Positions 1,674-53,985 of a stretch of DNA of 64,000 nt are shown in pieces. The DNA comes from Chloroflexota bacterium. GTDB taxonomy: Bacteria > Chloroflexota > Dehalococcoidia > UBA2979. The position numbers were made by a program, and so were the translations under genes. The stretch lies in assembly GCA_027622315.1 (NCBI GenBank), contig JAQBZW010000001.1, positions 433 through 64,432 of the forward strand. The letters run 5' to 3'. The first letter of the stretch is position 1; every line of letters begins with the position of its first letter. The notes beneath the pieces are model-generated. The model did not search any database. It saw nothing but the letters and a program-made list of their open reading frames with translations, and was not told the origin of the DNA.

Positions 1674-2645
1674 CTATCGCGACGCGATCTCCGCGCCCCA
1701 CTCCCGGCGCACGGCCTCCAGCAGCACGCCGGCGGCGGAACGCGGATCGCGCCTGCGGCCGGCGACTTCGTCCACCAGCGCTGCCAGCGCGCCACTCTGG
1801 TTCGCGGTCACGAGCGCCTCGCGATGCAGTGCCGCACGTGTGAGCGCGACGATCTGCTTGCGCGCCAGGTCCCGGCGCTCACGATCGCCGTGCTCGTTGG
1901 AGCGCATGAAGGCGTGGTGCTCGTCAATGTGGTCGACGAGTGTGCCCACGCTGTCACCGGTCTTCGCCACGACCTTCAGAATGGGCGGACGCCAGGCGCC
2001 CAGATCGGCGATCGCGAGCAACGCCTTCAGCTGCGTCATGGCCGTGTCGGCGCCCGCGAGGTCCGCCTTGTTCACGACCAGGATCTGTGCCACCTCCATG
2101 AGGCCGGCCTTCATCGACTGGATCTCGTCGCCGCCGCCGGGGTTTGTGACGAGCACGGTCGTCTGGGCGGCGGTCGCGATCTCGACCTCGTCCTGGCCGG
2201 CGCCGACGGTCTCGATCATGACCACGTCGAAGCCTGCGGCATCCATCAGATCCGCCACGCCGGTCGCGGTCTCGGAGAGGCCGCCGAGGTTGCCGCGTGA
2301 GGCCATCGAGCGCATGAAGACGCCGCCGTCGGCGGTGAGGTCCTGCATGCGGATGCGGTCGCCGAGAATCGCGCCGTGCGAGAACGGTGAGGAGGGATCG
2401 ACGGCGACGATGCCCACGGTGCGCTCGCGCCGGCGCTGCTCACGTGCCAGCGCACCAACGAGCGTGGACTTCCCGGCTCCCGCGGAGCCGGTGATGCCGA
2501 CGATCTGCGCGTTGCCGGTGTACCGGTACAGCCTCCGCTGAAGTTCGCGGCCGATCGCCGAGTCCGCCTCGACGTGAGAGATCGCGCGGGCGAGCGCTCG
2601 CCGGTTGCCCGCGCGTACGCCCTCCGCGAGCTCGGCCGCTCCCAC
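1674..2645 (-). CDS. meaB: methylmalonyl-CoA mutase-associated G-protein chaperone MeaB (ArgK family GTPase)
   Basis: VGAAELAEGVRAGNRRALARAISHVE...GITGSAGAGKSTLVGAL...VNKADL with a P-loop. A GTG at 2643-2645 lies 5 nt after the stop of the B12-subunit gene. The longer track ORF would overlap that gene. Confidence 0.8.
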   Translation of the reverse strand: MGAAELAEGVRAGNRRALARAISHVEADSAIGRELQRRLYRYTGNAQIVGITGSAGAGKSTLVGALAREQRRRERTVGIVAVDPSSPFSHGAILGDRIRMQDLTADGGVFMRSMASRGNLGGLSETATGVADLMDAAGFDVVMIETVGAGQDEVEIATAAQTTVLVTNPGGGDEIQSMKAGLMEVAQILVVNKADLAGADTAMTQLKALLAIADLGAWRPPILKVVAKTGDSVGTLVDHIDEHHAFMRSNEHGDRERRDLARKQIVALTRAALHREALVTANQSGALAALVDEVAGRRRDPRSAAGVLLEAVRREWGAEIASR

Positions 2646-2650
2646 GCCGG

Positions 2651-3058
2651 CTATGTCCGCACCGGCGCGTGCGCCTTCACGAACTCGATGATGTCGCCGG
2701 TGTTCGTCCCGGGGCCGAAGACGCCCTGGAACCCGATCGCCTTGATCTTCTCGATGTCCTCCTGCGGGATGATGCCGCCGCAAAACAGCAACACGTCATC
2801 GACCCCTCGTTGCTTGAGCTCGTCCACGACGCGCGGAAAGAGCTCGAGGTGCGCGCCCGAGAGGATGGACAGGCCGACGACCTGCGCGTCTTCCTGGAGG
2901 GCGGCTTCGGCGATCATGGCCGGCGTCTGGCGGATGCCGGTGTAGATGACCTCCATACCGGCATCGCGCAACGCGCGCGCCACCACCTTCGCGCCACGGT
3001 CGTGCCCGTCCAGGCCGGGCTTCGCGATCAGCACACGAATTCGCTGTTCGTTCGCCAA
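2651..3058 (-). CDS. methylmalonyl-CoA mutase B12-binding small subunit (C-terminal cobalamin-binding domain homolog)
   Basis: (L)[40 protein letters not shown]...[13 protein letters not shown] contains the DxHxxG cobalamin-binding motif. The start is TTG at 3056-3058, preceded by GGAGGAG (5 nt). Confidence 0.8.
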
Positions 3059-3173
3059 GATCTCCTCCGTGCTCCGCGGTGCCGTTCGTTCGGTTCCACC
3101 GCGCGGTATCCACGCGCTCACAGTCTGTGCTCCCGGCGGCACGCGCGCCACAGTGCCGCGTGCCGGCGCGAGG

Positions 3174-3992
3174 CTAGCGTTCGAATTGAATGAGCTGGAT
3201 CCCGAGCCCGAAGGCCTGCTCCGCCGAGACCGTGGACGTGACCGACCGGGGCAGCACCCCCGGCTGAGCATCCGGGAGCTCGATCCCGTGCCCCCGGTAG
3301 CGCGCAATCTCGGCCGCGATGTCCGGTACCTCGATCGCGACCATGGACGCAGCGCGCTCGCCCTGCTCAGCGATGCGCTGCGCCATCGGCGAATCGGGAC
3401 CGGTGGGAGCGAGCAACTCGATCGTGCACTGGCTGCACGGCATCTGGCCGATCACCATGCCGCGGCCCTCAGCCCGCACCTCGCCCTTCACCTCGAGCCC
3501 GACGATCCGCTTCCACGTCGCCTGTGCGGCGTGGTAGTCGGCAACCGTCACGGCGAGGTGATCGAAGCCCTTGCCGGTGCCCACGTGGGCACCGGCGGGC
3601 GGCTGTGCGAACTCGATGAGCACACCGTGCACGGACTTCGGGTGCACGAAGCCGATGCGCCCGGCCAGGCCGTCGCGCGACGTCTCATCGATGAGCTCCA
3701 CGCCGGCGGCCTTCAGGCGCGCGAGCTCGCCATCGACGTCGTCCGTGTTGAAGCAGATGTGGTGCAGGGTCTGACCACGGCTCTCGAGAAAGCGAGCGAC
3801 ACCGGTGTCATCGCGTGTCGGCTGCAGCAGCTCGATCTCGTTCTCGCCGAGTCCGAGCAGCACGCCGCGCACGCCCTGCTCTTCGATCACGCGATCCTCG
3901 GTCACAGGCAATCCCATGACGTCGCGAAAGAAGCCGAGCGCGGCATCGGCGTCGCGCACGACGACGCCGACGTGGTGGACGCGATCGATCAT
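3174..3992 (-). CDS. methylmalonyl-CoA epimerase (VOC/glyoxalase fold) fused to a second VOC domain
   Basis: The N-terminal domain, [27 protein letters not shown]...[39 protein letters not shown]...[16 protein letters not shown], is MCE-like. A second VOC-type domain follows. AAGGAG SD precedes the ATG. Confidence 0.7.
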
Positions 3993-4047
3993 GGAGTGCT
4001 CCTTCGTGATCTCGAGTGCGTGTCGTCGCGGATCGCGATCGCGGTGA

Positions 4048-4521
4048 TCAGATGCCCTGCGCGCGGCGCCAGTCGCGGATCGCGTCGATGTGTTCGCGGT
4101 CGTGGCCGCCCGCGTTCGCGAGGTTGTGAGCCGTGCGCCCGGGCACGATGCGCTCCAGGTCCATCGTGCCGCGGAGGCCCCGCACCGCCGCCTCGTGGCG
4201 TTCGCGGTTCTGGCGGAAGTCGACCATGAGCTGCTCCCACGACCGCTCGCGTGCGGCTGCCACCGAGCCGGCGTTGTACGCGTCGTCGTCGCCCTCGTAG
4301 CCCGGCACGGCCGGGCGCTCGCCGCTAGCCATCAGCTCCAAGGCATGAGACCAGCCTGCCTGCCATCCGCCGAGGTGCCCGATAATGTCATGCACCGACC
4401 ACTGCTCGGGGCCGAACCAGCCCTCGCTTCGCCGCTCGGCCGGCAGCGCGTCGATCACGTCGATCAGCTCAGCGCGCGCCTGCGCGTTGCCCTCGATCAG
4501 TTCGTCGATCACATCGGCCAT
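4048..4521 (-). CDS. DinB/YfiT-like (DinB_2) metal-dependent protein
   Basis: MADVIDELIEGNAQARAELIDVIDALP...WSVHDIIGHLGGWQAGWSHALE is His-rich and DinB_2-like. The internal ATG of ORF 4048..4596 was chosen as the start. Confidence 0.5.
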   Translation of the reverse strand: MADVIDELIEGNAQARAELIDVIDALPAERRSEGWFGPEQWSVHDIIGHLGGWQAGWSHALELMASGERPAVPGYEGDDDAYNAGSVAAARERSWEQLMVDFRQNRERHEAAVRGLRGTMDLERIVPGRTAHNLANAGGHDREHIDAIRDWRRAQGI

Positions 4522-4610
4522 CGTCGCCCCCGCCCGCGCGATCGCGCGTCCCGCACAGCCGTGCCGCCGTCGCGCGGGAAGTTCGCCCGCGGACACGGAT
4601 CAGGCACGGA

Positions 4611-6266
<1,656 letters not shown>

Positions 6267-48611: not shown

Positions 48612-50438
48612 ATGCCCATTCGAGACGACATCCGCAACGTCGCGATCATCGCGCACGTCGACCACGGCAAGACCACGCTGGTGGACGGGCTGCTGCGTCA
48701 GTCCGGCTCCTTCACAGCACACGAGGCACTCACCGACCGGGTCATGGACTCAGGCGACCTCGAACGCGAGAAGGGGATCACGATCCTCGCGAAGAACACC
48801 GCGATCCGGTACCGCGATGTGAAGATCAACATCATCGACACACCGGGCCACGCGGACTTCGGCGGCGAAGTGGAACGCGGGCTCACGATGGCAGATGGCG
48901 CCCTGCTACTCGTCGACGCGAGCGAGGGGCCTCTGCCGCAGACCCGCTTCGTGCTGCGCAAGGCGCTCGAGCGACGGATGTCGATCATCCTGATCATCAA
49001 CAAGGTCGATCGGCCGGACGCGCGCATCAAGGAAGTCGTGGACGAGGTTTACGAGCTGTTCCTCGACCTCGACGCCGACGCGCAGCAGATCGAGTTTCCG
49101 ATCGTGTACTGCAACGCGCGCGCGGGCGTCGCATCACTCGACGCGGACACGCCGGGCACGGACCTCGCTCCGCTGTTCGACCTCCTGCTCGCCCGCATTC
49201 CCGCGCCGGTCTACCGCGAGGGGCACCCGCTCCAGGCGCTCGTGACCAACCTCGACGCCTCGCCGTACCTGGGCCGGCTCGCGATCTGCCGCGTACTCGA
49301 GGGCGAGATTCAGCGCGGCCAGATGATCGCGCACTGCCGTGAGGACGGCACGATCGACAGGGTGCGCGTCGCCGAGCTGTTCGTGACCGAGGCGCTCGAT
49401 CGCGTGGACGCCGCCTCGGCCGGCCCCGGCGAGATCATCGCCGTCGCCGGCATGCAGGACGTGACGATCGGCGAAACGCTGTCCGACGCCGACGATCCGC
49501 GACCGCTGCCGGTGATCCGCGTCGATGAGCCGAGCCTCTCGATGACGATCGGCATCAACACATCGCCGCTGGTCGGCCGCGAGGGCGACAAGCTCACTTC
49601 CCGCCTGCTGAAGACTCGGCTCGACGCCGAGATCCTCGGCAACGTCTCGATTCGCGTTTCACCGGCGGACCGGCCGGACACCTGGACCGTGCAGGGGCGG
49701 GGCGAGCTCCAGCTCGCGGTGCTCGTGGAGACCATGCGCCGCGAGGGCTACGAACTCACCGTCGGCAAGCCCGAGGTCGTGACGCGGGAGATCGACGGCA
49801 AGCTGTGTGAGCCGATGGAGCAGCTCTTCGTCGACATCCCGGAGGAGTACCTGGGAGTGGTTACGCAGCTGCTCGCGCTGCGCAAGGGTCGCATGCAGCA
49901 GATGGTGAACCATGGCACGGGACGCGTTCGGATGGAGTTCATCGTCCCGGCGCGCGCACTGATCGGCTTCCACACGGAATTCCTCACGGAGACGCGCGGA
50001 TCCGGGATGCTCAACCACCTCTTCCACGGCTACGAGCCGTGGCACGGCGAGCTGCGCACGCGCCCGACCGGGAGCCTCGTCGCCGACCGCCGCGGCGCGA
50101 CCACGACGTACGCGCTGCTGAACCTCCAGGAGCGCGGCGTGCTGTTCATCCCGCCCGGCACCGACGTGTACGAGGGCATGATCATCGGCGAGAACGCCCG
50201 CACCGAGGACATGGACGTCAACCCGACGCGCGAGAAGAACCTCACGAACATGCGCAGCTCGAGCTCCGATCGCACGGAGCGGCTCTACCCGCACACCCCG
50301 CTCTCGCTCGAGCAGTCGCTCGAGTTCCTGCGAGAAGACGAGTGCCTGGAGGTCACGCCCGGCGCCGTGCGCCTGCGCAAGGTCGTGCTCGACCAGAACG
50401 ATCGGTCGCGCCGGTCCAAGGGGCGTCCCGGCGGCTAG
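48612..50438 (+). CDS. typA: translational GTPase TypA/BipA
   Basis: [22 protein letters not shown] is the G1 motif. The domains are EF-G-like. GGAGA lies 5 nt before the ATG. Confidence 0.9.
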
Positions 50439-50515: not shown

Positions 50516-50752
50516 CTAGTGGGGCAGATCCCGCGCGAGCCGCTCAGCCTCGGTGCGCCGCAGCTCGCGCGCCTCTACCGGTGTGAACGTGCTCGCGCAC
50601 GAGTCGCACTTGTAGCTCGACGCGCGGTCCTCATGCCCCATGTCTTCCGCGCTGTCCCAGCGCGGGACCAGCGTCACGTGCGGACACTGCACAGCGATCG
50701 GTGGCGCCGCTTTCGCAGCTTTTCGTCCCATGATCTTGCTCAACCAGCTCAT
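50516..50752 (-). CDS. small zinc-ribbon-like protein (CPH...CDSC), hypothetical
   Basis: 78 aa with high third-position GC. GGAGGA lies 3-4 nt before the ATG. ...VQCPHVTLVPRW...YKCDSCASTF... Confidence 0.5.
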   Translation of the reverse strand: MSWLSKIMGRKAAKAAPPIAVQCPHVTLVPRWDSAEDMGHEDRASSYKCDSCASTFTPVEARELRRTEAERLARDLPH

Positions 50753-50976: not shown

Positions 50977-51882
50977 TCATGTCGCGCGAGCGTGCCCCTC
51001 GACCTTGCGCCGCGACTGCTGGCGTCGCCTCAGCTCACCCGCGCGACGGAGCAACTCGCGGTTCGTGTCGTCGACCCGCATGTAGTTGTCTCGCCACCAC
51101 GCGGAGTCGTCCCAGGTGAACGGCGTCTGCACCGTGGTCCGCGGGAAGCGTGCGCTTTCGAGCACATCGAAGCCGTACGCGACGATCGCGCGCTGCATCT
51201 CGCTGTCGTATGGCTTGCCCGTCGGGTTGCCGAGCGGGAAGTCCGTGAAGACGAAGCGCGCCACGCCGCACTGCTCCACGATGTCGCGCGCCGAGCCCAG
51301 GATCACCGTGGGGATGCCGTTCGCCTCGAGGTGCCGCGAAACCAGACTCACGGTCTGGTGGCAGACCGGTCAGAGGGGCACCAGCATCGCGATATCGACG
51401 CCGTCCTCGCGACACCAGTCGAGCACTCGCGGCGCGTCCAGTTCGACGGTGCGCCGCTGGCTGTAGTCGGTCGGCACGCCGTAGAAGCGAGGCGAGAGCT
51501 CCGCGATGCGCCCGTCGGCAACGAACTCCTGCAGGCGATGGATTGGGAAGAACGAGTCGAGATCCTCGGTGTGCGTGGCGTCCTTGTCCCACGATCGGTG
51601 CTGGGTGTAGAGGCGCGCAGGCGGCGGCTCGACCGGCGACGCGTATGGCTCACCCGCGGGCACGCGGTCGGGGTCGGGGTCCGTGTCGCCTTCGATCAGC
51701 GACGCGGTGGTGATCAGCGCCACCCGGCTCTCCGCGAGCGGTTTCGCCAGCGGCGCCCACGGCGCGTCCTCGTGGTGGGCCCAGCGGTACGGGTTCCCGT
51801 AGCCGTGGGCGAGGTAGTACTCGCGCGACTTATCGATATAGCTGACGAACATGCGATGCGCCGGGTCGTGGACATCGTCCAT
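50977..51882 (-). CDS. GrdB/PrdB-family (glycine/betaine/D-proline reductase component B-like) selenoprotein; in-frame TGA at 51370-51372 read as selenocysteine
   Basis: Track ORFs 51370..51981 and 50977..51351 are in the same frame, separated by one TGA. The joined product reads ...RLQEFVADGRIAELSPRFYGV...GVDIAMLVPL-U-PVCHQTVSLVSRHLEANGIPTVILGSARDIV..., which parallels PrdB ...DLVVMTAG-U-GTCHRSAVIVQRAIEEAGIPTIII. The start (ATG 51882) follows GAGGAGGG (4 nt). A stem-loop begins 2 nt after the TGA. Confidence 0.65.
51330..51369 (-). other. candidate bacterial SECIS-like stem-loop immediately 3' of the in-frame UGA
   Basis: The mRNA reads UGA-CC-GGUCUG-CCAC-CAGACC-GUGAGUCUGG... with overlapping alternative hairpins (GGUCUG/CAGACC and CCAGAC/GUCUGG). 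Confidence 0.4.
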
Positions 51883-52047
51883 GGAAGCCCTCCTCGGAAC
51901 GAGGAGCCCACTAGAGCACACGCACACTCCGCACGAACAGAGACGATGGGCCCGTGACCACGACCAGCGCGGGCGCCGCACGTCCGGCGCTGCGCCACGG
52001 GTGTTCGCGAGGTGCAGGCATCGGCCGACGATGCGTGTCCGGACGGC

Positions 52048-53985
52048 TCACGCGGCGACCGTCCGTCCCTCGTCCGTGAGCTCGCCCAGTGCCAGCCGAG
52101 CGCGCAGCCGGGGCATCGCGAGTTCGACCGCCAGGCGGCCGGCTTCGATGAACTCGTCCGCCCGGTGCCAGTCCCGCAGACCTGTCGATCCGTGAAACAC
52201 GGGCTCGAGACTCACGTCTGCGCGCGATGCGCCTTCCGAGGTGATCTTCCACTGCATCACGTCGAACGCCCGCATCACGGTGTCGACAATCGGTGGCGAG
52301 AGGCGGGCCCGCCAGCCGGTGCGTCGCTCCGCGCGCGCGGCCGGCGGCGAGAGCATGACGCCGATCACGATGTCGGCGCCGTCCGCCGCCACGGTGTTCG
52401 TCGGCACCGGGTTCAACACGGCGCCGTCGACGAGGCGACGGCCATCGAACTCAACCGGCGGATAGACCGCCGGGATAGCGATGCTGGCGAGGATGGCGTC
52501 CGTCAGTGGTCCCTTGCGGAACACGTACTCCTCGCGACGGTCGAGATCGGCCGCAACGATCGAGAGCGGGAGCCGCAGGCTGCCGAACGTACGTCCCTGG
52601 GAGAGCCGTTCGAAGCCGCCCCGCAACGCCCCGGCGCTCCACATCGAGTGCCACGGCAGGCGCGGCCTCGCCAGCTCACGGAAGATCCGGTCCATATGTC
52701 CGCGCATCTCGTCGACGGACATGCCGAGCGCCGCGCCGCTGGCGAGCGGCGCGCCGATGCTGCTGCCGGCCAGGTAGTCGACGGTGATCCCGTGCTCCTC
52801 GAGACCGGCGAGCACGCCCAGGTGCGCGTAGCCCTTCGCCCCCCCGGCCCCGAGCGCGAGCCCGACCTTGCGCTGCAGGAAGTGGCGCGCGAGCCAGTCG
52901 ATCGACTGGCCCGGTTCACCGGCGGTCTCCGCGCTGCGGAAGAGCGGCATCGGCCCGCCGGGGATCACGCGGAGCACGCGCGCGCGGCAGTGCTCGCTCA
53001 GCCGGCCGCGCTCCGCTTCGTTGTCCACGGAGCCACTCTCGGAGAGCACCACCACGTCACGCTCCGCGGGCAGACGGTTACGTCGGACCACGTCGAGCTG
53101 GCGGTCGAAGCCGATCGCGATCATGGTGTCCGCGACGGCGACGAGCGTCGGGCGCGTCTGTGACGTCATCGGCACGTGCGCGATCACGAGCGGGTAACGA
53201 CCGGCGAGCTCGTTCAGCAGATCGATCACCACCGTGCGGTTCAGCTCCCGCCCTTCGCCGTGCCGGACCACGCCGACGCGCGCACCGATTCCGGTCGCGA
53301 ACGCATCGTGCACGGCGAACTGCGCCGGTTGCGCGAGCAGCTCGCGCAGGCTCGGCAGCTCGTGCGCGTACGTCGGCACCACGGTCGCCTCGGTGAGGTC
53401 CACCAGCAGCACCGGCCGCTCGAGCGTGCGCGCTGCCGAGAGCGCCGTACGCGCCAGCAGCGCGACCGCCCAACCGGGGTCGCCAAAGCTCCCCGCTCCG
53501 ACCATCCGGCCGCGTGCGTGCATGCGCTTCAGACGACGGTTCGTGTCGCTCAGCCGGGATGCGATCTTCGAGGCGAGCTCGCGCATCATCCGCGGCGATC
53601 GCTCAGCGACCTCGGCGAGCACGACGTGCGGCACCTCCCACACGATCGCGTCGTCGAGCGCCTCGACACGAGCGCCGGAGTGCTCGTGGCGGATCAGCGA
53701 CAGCTCGCCGCAATAGTCGCCGGGCCCGAGCCGTGCGACCTCGATCGCCTCGCCGCGCTCGTCCGGGATGGCGACGCCCAGCAGTCCGCTCTCCACGATG
53801 TAGACGCTGTCGATCGCCACGCCAACGCCGGCGACGAGATCGCCCACGCGGAACACGCGACGGTGCGAGCTCGCGGCGAGCAGGTCACGGCCCGCGGGGT
53901 CGATGCCCGCGAACAGCTCGACTTCGGAGGCGACGCTCCAGAAGTCAGGGTCGGATGGCGATGAGTCGTTCACAACACTCAGCAT
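52048..53985 (-). CDS. cyclic-nucleotide-binding domain protein fused to a patatin-like phospholipase
   Basis: The N-terminal part, FAGIDPAGRDLL...RVGDLVAGVGVAIDSVYIVESG...GPGDYCGELSLI, is a cNMP-binding fold. GLALGAGGAKGYAHLGVLAGL...YLAGSSIGAPLA carries the patatin GxGxxG and GxSxG motifs. Confidence 0.8.
   Translation of the reverse strand: MLSVVNDSSPSDPDFWSVASEVELFAGIDPAGRDLLAASSHRRVFRVGDLVAGVGVAIDSVYIVESGLLGVAIPDERGEAIEVARLGPGDYCGELSLIRHEHSGARVEALDDAIVWEVPHVVLAEVAERSPRMMRELASKIASRLSDTNRRLKRMHARGRMVGAGSFGDPGWAVALLARTALSAARTLERPVLLVDLTEATVVPTYAHELPSLRELLAQPAQFAVHDAFATGIGARVGVVRHGEGRELNRTVVIDLLNELAGRYPLVIAHVPMTSQTRPTLVAVADTMIAIGFDRQLDVVRRNRLPAERDVVVLSESGSVDNEAERGRLSEHCRARVLRVIPGGPMPLFRSAETAGEPGQSIDWLARHFLQRKVGLALGAGGAKGYAHLGVLAGLEEHGITVDYLAGSSIGAPLASGAALGMSVDEMRGHMDRIFRELARPRLPWHSMWSAGALRGGFERLSQGRTFGSLRLPLSIVAADLDRREEYVFRKGPLTDAILASIAIPAVYPPVEFDGRRLVDGAVLNPVPTNTVAADGADIVIGVMLSPPAARAERRTGWRARLSPPIVDTVMRAFDVMQWKITSEGASRADVSLEPVFHGSTGLRDWHRADEFIEAGRLAVELAMPRLRARLALGELTDEGRTVAA

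What the first reader, a model, noticed from the sequence alone, without database searches (positions are those of the whole stretch)
51325..51372. SECIS-like stem-loop directly downstream of the UGA
The mRNA reads UGA-CC-GGUCUG-CCAC-CAGACC-GUGAGUCUGG-UUUCGCGGCACC. Two overlapping perfect 6-bp hairpins begin 2-12 nt after the UGA, which is the expected position for a bacterial SECIS element recruiting SelB. The exact fold is uncertain.
Basis: seen in the sequence. Interest (0 to 1): 0.5.

Follow-up and report, generated by a model that had tools for sequence, protein, structure and literature searches.

The report
Selenocysteine insertion hairpin in PrdB-like gene
The stem-loop after this in-frame UGA is very probably a real bacterial selenocysteine-insertion signal in a PrdB-like redox gene, an ordinary new member of a selenoprotein family known from metagenomes since 2005.

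Summary
It lies on the minus strand inside a 301-codon gene (50977..51882) of the GrdB/PrdB superfamily. The UGA (51372-51370, codon 171) replaces the first Cys of an invariant PL-C-PVCHQ motif, giving UxxC.

I fetched 175 related loci from at least eight bacterial lineages. 162 carry TGA at this codon and 13 carry TGC or TGT. The reading frame continues under purifying selection after the TGA.

It is the second one, extended to 7 bp: ACCAGAC-CGUGA-GUCUGGU, nt 14-32 after the U of UGA, window 51341..51359. It pairs in 93% of cells across 136 distinct Sec sequences and shows compensatory changes. Synonymous variation collapses exactly there: Ser is AGT in 135 of 137 sequences, against 1 of 141 at a control Ser codon.

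The first hairpin (GGUCUG/CAGACC) does no better than shuffled controls. The lower stem of the single-sequence fold is not conserved either.

The conserved hairpin meets every criterion of the published bacterial SECIS model. Taken alone, the window's hairpin is not statistically unusual for 69% GC DNA. The case rests on comparison with orthologues. No Sec machinery gene lies in the window. Verdict: SECIS reading supported, low novelty.

The parts
50977..51882 (-). PrdB-like selenoprotein gene. It has 301 codons plus a stop. The ATG is at 51882-51880, preceded by GAGGAGG. The true stop is TGA at 50979-50977.
   Evidence: The translation reads through one internal TGA. The Shine-Dalgarno sequence and ATG are seen. 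The best NCBIfam hit is TIGR04483 PrdB at 97.9 bits, E 5.8e-28, below the 300-bit cutoff. Full-length Cys homologues are 64-71% identical. After the TGA, synonymous differences outnumber nonsynonymous ones (43 to 21 against L006, 29 to 16 against L005), and the stop falls at the same codon.
51370..51372 (-). In-frame UGA, codon 171, the predicted selenocysteine codon (U of a UxxC motif).
   Evidence: It aligns with the first Cys of PL-C-PVCHQ in full-length homologues. Database proteins P0012, P0024, P0041 and P0058 end exactly here. 162 of 175 fetched loci have TGA at this codon and 13 have TGC or TGT. The neighbouring patatin gene and this gene's own end both use TGA as an ordinary stop.
51353..51359 (-). 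5' arm of the conserved SECIS hairpin, ACCAGAC (nt 14-20 after the U of UGA).
   Evidence: Pair counts on 136 distinct Sec sequences. RNAalifold on the 114-sequence class A subset returns the stem 15-20 with 26-31.
51348..51352 (-). Apical loop CGUGA (nt 21-25), with G then U at loop positions 2 and 3.
   Evidence: Columns 21-25 are at least 90% conserved even though they include two third-codon positions (ACC, GTG). The loop meets the 'G in the first two loop positions, followed by G or U' rule of the bSECIS model.
51341..51347 (-). 3' arm of the conserved SECIS hairpin, GUCUGGU (nt 26-32).
   Evidence: The Ser codon supplying G26 and U27 is AGT in 135 of 137 sequences, against 1 of 141 at a control Ser codon 18 codons downstream.
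51352..51367 (-). It is present in this sequence but not conserved, and it cannot form together with the SECIS hairpin.
   Evidence: 87.3% of cells are paired against a shuffled mean of 87.4%, and the covariation score is no better than shuffles. Pairs 6-21 and 9-18 are broken in 46 and 37 of 136 sequences. The Pro, Val and Cys codons here vary freely at third positions.
51330..51337 (-). 3' side of a lower stem (nt 36-43 pairing with nt 6-12) predicted only by the single-sequence fold. It is specific to this window and its close relatives.
   Evidence: It appears in the MFE structure. Pairs 9-39 and 12-36 are unpaired in 87 and 107 of 136 sequences.

Best explanation
This is a bacterial SECIS element inside the coding sequence of a PrdB-like selenoprotein gene. 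While the ribosome decodes UGA171, the mRNA 14-32 nt downstream folds into a 7-bp hairpin (ACCAGAC/GUCUGGU) capped by the loop CGUGA. The Sec-specific elongation factor SelB, carrying Sec-tRNA(Sec), would bind that loop and upper stem and deliver selenocysteine to the UGA instead of letting release factor 2 terminate. The product is a 301-residue protein with a U-P-V-C redox motif.

Shown here: the in-frame UGA at a Cys position, continued purifying selection after it, and conservation, covariation and synonymous-site constraint confined to the hairpin, which also fits the published bSECIS model. Inferred: SelB binding, Sec insertion, and the presence of selA, selB, selC and selD elsewhere in this genome.
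For: 1. The UGA aligns with the first Cys of the invariant PLCPVCHQ motif.

2. All 80 best genome loci carry TGA at this codon, and so do 162 of the 175 loci fetched in total. The genome loci are labelled Dehalococcoidia/Chloroflexota, Myxococcota or 'delta', Binatia, Acidimicrobiia, Spirochaetes, Burkholderiales, SAR324 and Blastocatellia.

3. The frame stays open to the same stop codon, with more synonymous than nonsynonymous differences after the UGA.

4. The class A hairpin is paired in 93.0% of cells across 136 distinct sequences. No shuffle out of 500 reaches its covariation score. Sliding the 3' partners drops pairing to 16-32%.

5. Compensatory changes occur at three pairs. G18-C28 becomes A-U in 4 sequences from at least 3 lineages, through synonymous CAA and TTG. 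C15-G31 becomes U-A in 11 sequences. A19-U27 becomes U-A in one sequence and G-C in another.

6. Codon entropy falls to 0.11-0.28 bits at codons +5 to +8, against about 1.5 bits in the flanks. AGT, a rare Ser codon, is used in 135 of 137 sequences here and in 1 of 141 at Ser +26.

7. Cys forms mostly use AGC and fold more weakly. Their nt 12-36 MFE values are -0.6 to -8.4 kcal/mol, against a Sec mean of -9.05.

8. All bSECIS model criteria are met: a 5-nt loop, a 7-bp stem, G then U at loop positions 2-3, 17 nt between the UGA and the loop, and MFE of -9.7 kcal/mol or lower.

9. PrdB with a UxxC motif is a documented abundant selenoprotein family in which Sec forms outnumber Cys forms.
Against: The hairpin is not statistically exceptional in the single sequence. 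No selA, selB, selD or tRNA-Sec gene is in the 64-kb window or in the flanks of related loci, so the Sec machinery of this organism is unverified. There is no Rfam family for bacterial SECIS to match. RNAalifold on the mixed alignment of 136 sequences returned no structure; it found the stem only after the two register classes were separated. Only 8 distinct Cys-form sequences were available as controls, and three of them keep relic hairpins (L089, L093, L175). Part of the conservation comes from the conserved peptide HQTVSL.
Confidence: 0.88

Rival explanations
1. The hairpin is a by-product of coding. The conserved peptide HQTVSLV happens to be encoded by self-complementary codons, and the UGA is recoded, or not, independently of it.
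For: The peptide is highly conserved. 7.2% of synonymous recodings fold as stably as the observed sequence. One Cys form with the same peptide still forms a weaker hairpin (L093).
Against: Third-codon positions and the six-fold Ser choice are frozen only within nt 13-33, while the equally conserved flanking Pro, Val, Cys, Ala and Arg codons vary freely. Where codons do change, the changes are compensatory. A sub-clade with the different peptide (Q/M)SVSLTA has built a different hairpin shifted about 4 nt, with its own covariation: C-G/G-C at pair 21-33 in 11 and 7 sequences, and G-C/C-G at pair 24-30 in 9 and 9.
Confidence: 0.04
2. The gene is a pseudogene or is split into two genes. The TGA is a true stop giving a 170-residue product, as gene callers annotate it, and the 124-codon downstream ORF is separate or dead.
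For: Public databases hold the 170-aa and 124-aa pieces as separate proteins. No Sec machinery was seen in the window.
Against: The same TGA sits at the same codon in 162 loci across many phyla. The downstream part is under purifying selection and is collinear with full-length Cys homologues. The stop falls in the middle of the catalytic CxxC motif.
Confidence: 0.04
3. The reader's first hairpin (nt 6-21), or the long two-tier fold with the lower stem (nt 6-43), is the functional SECIS rather than the 7-bp upper hairpin alone.
For: Hairpin 1 is a perfect 6-bp stem. The two-tier fold is the MFE structure of the window's sequence at -19.0 kcal/mol for nt 4-48. Hairpin 1 appears in the MFE fold of 14 of 136 orthologues.
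Against: Hairpin 1 pairs no better than shuffles, and its loop CCAC has no G. Lower-stem pairs 9-39 and 12-36 are broken in most sequences. Nucleotides 6-12 lie within the stretch the ribosome covers when the UGA is in the A site, which is an inference from established ribosome footprints.
Confidence: 0.04

Closest known systems
Bacterial SECIS element, consensus bSECIS model of Zhang & Gladyshev as summarised in PMC13188914
   Same: It is a stem-loop in the coding region just after an in-frame UGA. It has a 5-nt apical loop, a 7-bp upper stem, G followed by U at loop positions 2-3, 17 nt between the UGA and the loop, and an MFE below -7.5 kcal/mol.
   Different: Nothing differs qualitatively. 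Reviews say bacterial SECIS elements usually bear little resemblance to one another. This one is nearly identical in sequence across many phyla because it overlaps the conserved active-site peptide.
Proline reductase PrdB selenoprotein family (UxxC) of marine metagenomes (PMC1088965, PMC2398784)
   Same: It shares the UxxC motif and the GrdB/PrdB homology, and Sec forms outnumber Cys forms: 42 to 1 in the Sargasso Sea, 235 to 110 in GOS, and 162 to 13 here.
   Different: I did not compare sequences with those data sets directly. This gene scores far below the PrdB equivalog cutoff and has no prd operon around it. It is better called PrdB-like, and its substrate is unknown.
Escherichia coli fdhF SECIS
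   Same: It has GU in the apical loop. From my own knowledge of Liu et al. 1998 (NAR 26:896, which I could not read here), the minimal E. coli element is a 17-nt stem-loop 11 nt after the UGA. Counting from C15 to G31, this hairpin is 17 nt long and starts 11 nt after the UGA.
   Different: It has no bulged U in the upper stem, because the helix is perfect. The loop is CGUGA. There is no conserved lower stem.

Membership tests
Bacterial SECIS (bSECIS consensus model) | Lies in the coding region immediately downstream of an in-frame UGA that aligns with Cys in homologues | tested here: met
Bacterial SECIS (bSECIS consensus model) | Apical loop of 3-9 nt and upper stem of 4-16 bp | tested here: met
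   The loop CGUGA is 5 nt. The stem is 7 bp in the window and 6 bp in the alifold consensus.
Bacterial SECIS (bSECIS consensus model) | G in one of the first two loop positions, usually followed by G or U | tested here: met
   The loop is C-G-U-G-A. Columns 22 (G) and 23 (U) are at least 90% conserved.
Bacterial SECIS (bSECIS consensus model) | 16-37 nt between the UGA and the apical loop | tested here: met
   17 nt (nt 4-20) lie between them in the window. The figure is 22 nt in the shifted class B relatives.
Bacterial SECIS (bSECIS consensus model) | MFE of -7.5 kcal/mol or lower | tested here: met
   -9.7 kcal/mol for nt 12-36 and -19.0 kcal/mol for nt 4-48.
Bacterial SECIS (bSECIS consensus model) | Structure conserved in orthologues with covariation | tested here: met
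Bacterial SECIS (bSECIS consensus model) | Bound by SelB and required for Sec insertion, with selA, selB, selC and selD present in the genome | not testable with these tools
   No sel genes or tRNA-Sec were found in the window or in locus flanks. The rest of the genome is not available.
E. coli fdhF-type SECIS | Bulged U in the upper stem together with GU in the loop | tested here: not met
   The helix is perfect and has no bulge. GU is present in the loop. The feature list is from my own knowledge.
D-proline reductase PrdB proper (NCBIfam TIGR04483 equivalog) | Scores above the equivalog cutoff of 300 bits | tested here: not met
   97.9 bits.
D-proline reductase PrdB proper (NCBIfam TIGR04483 equivalog) | Encoded in a prd operon with prdA and other prd genes | tested here: not met
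   The neighbours are a cNMP-binding patatin-like protein, a 78-aa ORF, TypA/BipA, SDRs, a thiolase and methylmalonyl-CoA mutase.
GrdB/PrdB selenoprotein B superfamily (TIGR01918 / PF07355) | Detectable homology, with Sec or Cys in a UxxC/CxxC motif at the homologous site | tested here: inconclusive
   Homology to PrdB is significant (E 5.8e-28). TIGR01918 scores only 26.9 bits against a cutoff of 65.45, and Pfam gives no hit for this protein, though some homologues carry PF07355. The UxxC motif is present. I did not check residue-level alignment with the Sec of clostridial PrdB.

The most novel reading that the evidence does not exclude
The family is not a proline reductase. It would be an orphan, stand-alone UxxC selenoenzyme of unknown substrate that is kept predominantly in the Sec form across many mostly aerobic soil and marine phyla.

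Its SECIS has also slid along the coding sequence. A class A hairpin (loop at nt 21-25) and a class B hairpin (loop at nt 26-28) each show their own covariation. Five sequences can form both (L050, L063, L069, L077, L086), which would be a snapshot of how a SECIS embedded in an active-site codon block migrates without loss of function.
Probability: 0.4. Interest if true: 0.35.

Novelty: new member of a known kind. Interest (0 to 1): 0.25.

Why it matters
It corrects the annotation. Gene callers split this gene into 170-aa and 124-aa fragments, and public protein databases hold many such fragments for this family. It adds one more genome that must carry the selenocysteine machinery. It also gives a clean case where comparative data choose between two competing hairpins. 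The biology itself, a bacterial SECIS in a PrdB-like UxxC selenoprotein, has been known from metagenomes since 2005, so the finding confirms rather than surprises.

Tried and rejected
1. The Rfam gathering scan of the window gave only two tRNAs. The permissive scan of 51200-51480 gave only a noise hit, IRES_Hsp70 at 10.9 bits. No Rfam family matched; I believe Rfam holds no bacterial SECIS family.

2. RNAalifold on all 136 Sec sequences returned an empty structure. Splitting them into register classes recovered the stems.

3. Pfam gave no hit for the protein. A PDB sequence search found no relative at E up to 1.

4. I searched for Sec machinery without result. ARAGORN found no tRNA-Sec in the window or in 60 related loci. 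Motif searches for SelB, SelD and SelA signatures found nothing in the window or in any fetched locus. The nearby GTPase is TypA/BipA, not SelB.

5. A scan of the window for other in-frame stops flanked by high-GC3 coding sequence found no second selenoprotein candidate.

6. DNA for the best Cys-form controls, P0001 and P0005, could not be fetched. Only 8 distinct Cys sequences were therefore available.

7. The paper on the minimal E. coli SECIS (PMC147357) is not held, and a text search for the 11-nt spacing found nothing usable. That comparison rests on my own knowledge.

8. I rejected UGA reassignment (genetic code 4 or 25). The genome is 69% GC and uses TGA as an ordinary stop for this gene and its neighbour.

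Full report
**Observation.** Nucleotides are numbered here from the U of UGA as +1.
- Hairpin 1 pairs nt 6-11 with nt 16-21, with loop CCAC.
- Hairpin 2 pairs nt 15-20 with nt 26-31 and extends to 7 bp with A14-U32. Its loop is CGUGA.
- The two share nt 16-21, so only one can form at a time.
- The minimum-energy fold of the region uses hairpin 2 and adds a lower stem, nt 6-12 with nt 36-43.

Taken alone, the sequence is not remarkable. The 81-nt fold has z = -0.67 against shuffles. The 25-nt hairpin folds at -9.7 kcal/mol. That value is matched by 7.2% of synonymous recodings of the same peptide and by 6-10% of 25-nt windows in this 69% GC region.

**The gene.**
- The UGA is in frame. ORFs 51370..51981 and 50977..51351 on the minus strand share a frame and are separated only by this stop.
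- The likely start is ATG 51882-51880, preceded by GAGGAGG. The gene therefore has 301 codons, with UGA as codon 171, and ends at TGA 50979-50977.
- The upstream patatin-like gene also ends in TGA. UGA is therefore an ordinary stop in this organism.
- NCBIfam places the protein nearest D-proline reductase PrdB (TIGR04483, 97.9 bits, E 5.8e-28), far below the 300-bit equivalog cutoff. GrdB-type models give weak hits. Pfam finds nothing.
- The neighbours are a cNMP-binding patatin-like protein, a 78-aa ORF, TypA/BipA, two short-chain dehydrogenases, a flavin reductase, a thiolase and methylmalonyl-CoA mutase. This is not a prd operon.

**The UGA sits at a Cys position.**
- In an alignment with full-length homologues 52-71% identical, the UGA aligns with the first Cys of an invariant PL-C-PVCHQ motif.
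- Four database proteins 82-98% identical to this one (P0012, P0024, P0041, P0058) end exactly at ...LVPL. A fifth, P0013, shows W there.
- Their contigs all carry TGA at that codon, followed by a separately called 124-codon ORF in the same frame.
- A species-level genome scan returned 80 loci. By record title they come from Dehalococcoidia and other Chloroflexota, Myxococcota or 'delta proteobacteria', Binatia, Acidimicrobiia, Spirochaetes, Burkholderiales, SAR324 and Blastocatellia. Every one has TGA at this codon.
- A metagenome scan seeded with Cys forms still returned mostly Sec forms. The overall count is 162 TGA against 13 TGC or TGT.
- True Cys forms exist: L089, L091, L093, L107, L110, L175 and L177.
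- After the TGA, synonymous differences outnumber nonsynonymous ones (43 to 21 against L006, 29 to 16 against L005, 7 to 2 against L001). The stop falls at the same codon. The downstream part is therefore translated.

**Which hairpin is real.** I aligned 136 distinct 63-nt Sec sequences without gaps (A3) and counted pairs for three structures.

| Structure | Cells paired | Control |
|---|---|---|
| Hairpin 2 as 7 bp (14-20 with 26-32) | 93.0% | Covariation score and double-change cells exceed all 500 shuffles; sliding the 3' partners drops pairing to 16-32% |
| Hairpin 1 (6-11 with 16-21) | 87.3% | Shuffled mean is 87.4%, reached by 359 of 500 shuffles; pairs 6-21 and 9-18 are broken in 46 and 37 sequences |
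| Lower stem (6-12 with 36-43) | 72.8% | Pairs 9-39 and 12-36 are unpaired in 87 and 107 sequences |

Hairpin 2 also shows compensatory changes.
- G18-C28 becomes A-U in four sequences, through synonymous CAA and TTG. One of them is a low-GC orthologue only 55% identical in protein (L008).
- C15-G31 becomes U-A in eleven sequences.
- A19-U27 becomes U-A in L086 and G-C in L079.

**Synonymous-site footprint.** This is the clearest evidence. Across 149 distinct 183-nt Sec segments, codon entropy within the majority amino acid is about 1.2-2.3 bits for the four- and six-fold codons in the flanks. This includes the equally conserved Pro, Val and Cys codons directly after the UGA and the Ala and Arg codons after the hairpin.
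- Entropy falls to 0.18, 0.27, 0.28 and 0.11 bits at codons +5 to +8 (CAG ACC GTG AGT). It is partly reduced at +4, +9 and +10.
- Ser +8 is AGT in 135 of 137 sequences and never TCN. Ser +26 is AGT in 1 of 141.
- In the two window genes I counted, AGT is 4 of 58 Ser codons.
- The constrained block, nt 13-33, coincides with the hairpin.
- Seven of the eight distinct Cys forms use AGC at that Ser codon, and they generally fold more weakly. Three keep relic hairpins (L089, L093, L175), which suggests recent Sec-to-Cys replacement.

**A second register.** Thirteen distinct sequences encode (Q/M)SVSLTA or QTVSLTA and cannot form the class A stem. They form a 6-bp stem of nt 20-25 with nt 29-34 and a GUC or GUU loop instead.
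- Among all 18 sequences that can form this class B stem, pair 21-33 is C-G in 11 and G-C in 7, and pair 24-30 is G-C in 9 and C-G in 9.
- RNAalifold finds each stem once the classes are separated. It finds nothing on the mixed alignment.
- Five of those 18 sequences can form both stems.
- The window belongs to class A.

**Comparison with the known model.** A 2026 review restates the bacterial SECIS model:
- a 3-9 nt loop and a 4-16 bp upper stem;
- a G in the first two loop positions, usually followed by G or U;
- 16-37 nt between the UGA and the loop;
- an MFE of -7.5 kcal/mol or lower (PMC13188914).

The window's hairpin meets every criterion: a 5-nt loop C-G-U-G-A, a 7-bp stem, 17 nt of spacing and -9.7 kcal/mol. 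It lacks the bulged U of the E. coli fdhF element. Its geometry, a 17-nt C15-G31 stem-loop starting 11 nt after the UGA, matches what I recall of the minimal E. coli SECIS. I could not read that paper here.

The protein family is also known. 'Proline reductase PrdB' with a UxxC motif was the third most abundant selenoprotein family in the Sargasso Sea data, with 42 Sec forms and 1 Cys form (PMC1088965). It was among the most abundant in GOS, with 235 Sec forms and 110 Cys homologues (PMC2398784).

**What remains inferred.** SelB binding and Sec insertion are not shown. No tRNA-Sec, selA, selB or selD is in the window or in the flanks of related loci, and the rest of the genome is not available. 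The rivals are each given a few percent, for the reasons listed under them: the hairpin as a coding by-product, a pseudogene or split gene, and hairpin 1 or the long two-tier fold as the functional element.

**Verdict.** The refinement is that the functional element is the second hairpin (window 51341..51359, minus strand), not the first. This is a new member of a known kind: a typical bacterial SECIS in a PrdB-like UxxC selenoprotein that current gene callers split in two. Interest is low. The mildly novel aspects are the orphan, non-prd context of a family that is mostly in the Sec form, and the two SECIS registers.

Noticed in passing
window 50516..50752 (-): A 78-aa ORF lies about 225 nt downstream of the selenoprotein gene. 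It reads MSWLSKIMGRK...CPH...CDSC..., a possible zinc-ribbon-like Cys pattern. A 78-79 aa ORF is called at the same relative position in L004, L005 and L007, so it may be a conserved partner. It has no credible Pfam hit.
   Followed up: partly
L019, L025, L026, L044, L117, L119, L121, L126, L140, L141, L144, L064, L139 (nt 20-34 after the UGA): A sub-clade of orthologues has lost the class A stem. It carries a hairpin shifted about 4 nt (CCGUGA-GUC-UCACGG and variants) with its own compensatory changes. L050, L063, L069, L077 and L086 can form both stems.
   Followed up: partly
P0012, P0024, P0041, P0058 (loci L001-L007); P0013 (L008): Public protein collections hold this family as truncated 170-173 aa and 124 aa fragments because gene callers stop at the Sec codon. 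One low-GC orthologue (L008) was translated with W at the TGA. This is a systematic mis-annotation.
   Followed up: yes
L089 (nt 2007 on), L175/L176 (nt 798 on), L093: Some Cys-form genes (TGC) still carry a recognisable relic of the class A or class B hairpin, but with AGC or an altered loop. This suggests recent Sec-to-Cys replacement.
   Followed up: no
L175 and L176 (ENA ERZ27336831 NODE_2380, record ranges 3559-5034 and 2331-3806): The same 291-aa Cys-form protein is encoded twice about 1.2 kb apart on one contig. Each copy is followed by a 57-aa acetolactate-synthase small-subunit fragment. This looks like a tandem duplication or an assembly repeat.
   Followed up: no
window 52048..53985 (-): The gene directly upstream encodes a 645-aa protein with a cyclic-nucleotide-binding domain and a patatin-like phospholipase domain. 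The same arrangement is seen in L001-L003, from the same or a very close organism.
   Followed up: partly
window 48612..50438 (+): A translational GTPase next to the selenoprotein gene is TypA/BipA (it has the BipA_C domain), not the Sec elongation factor SelB.
   Followed up: yes
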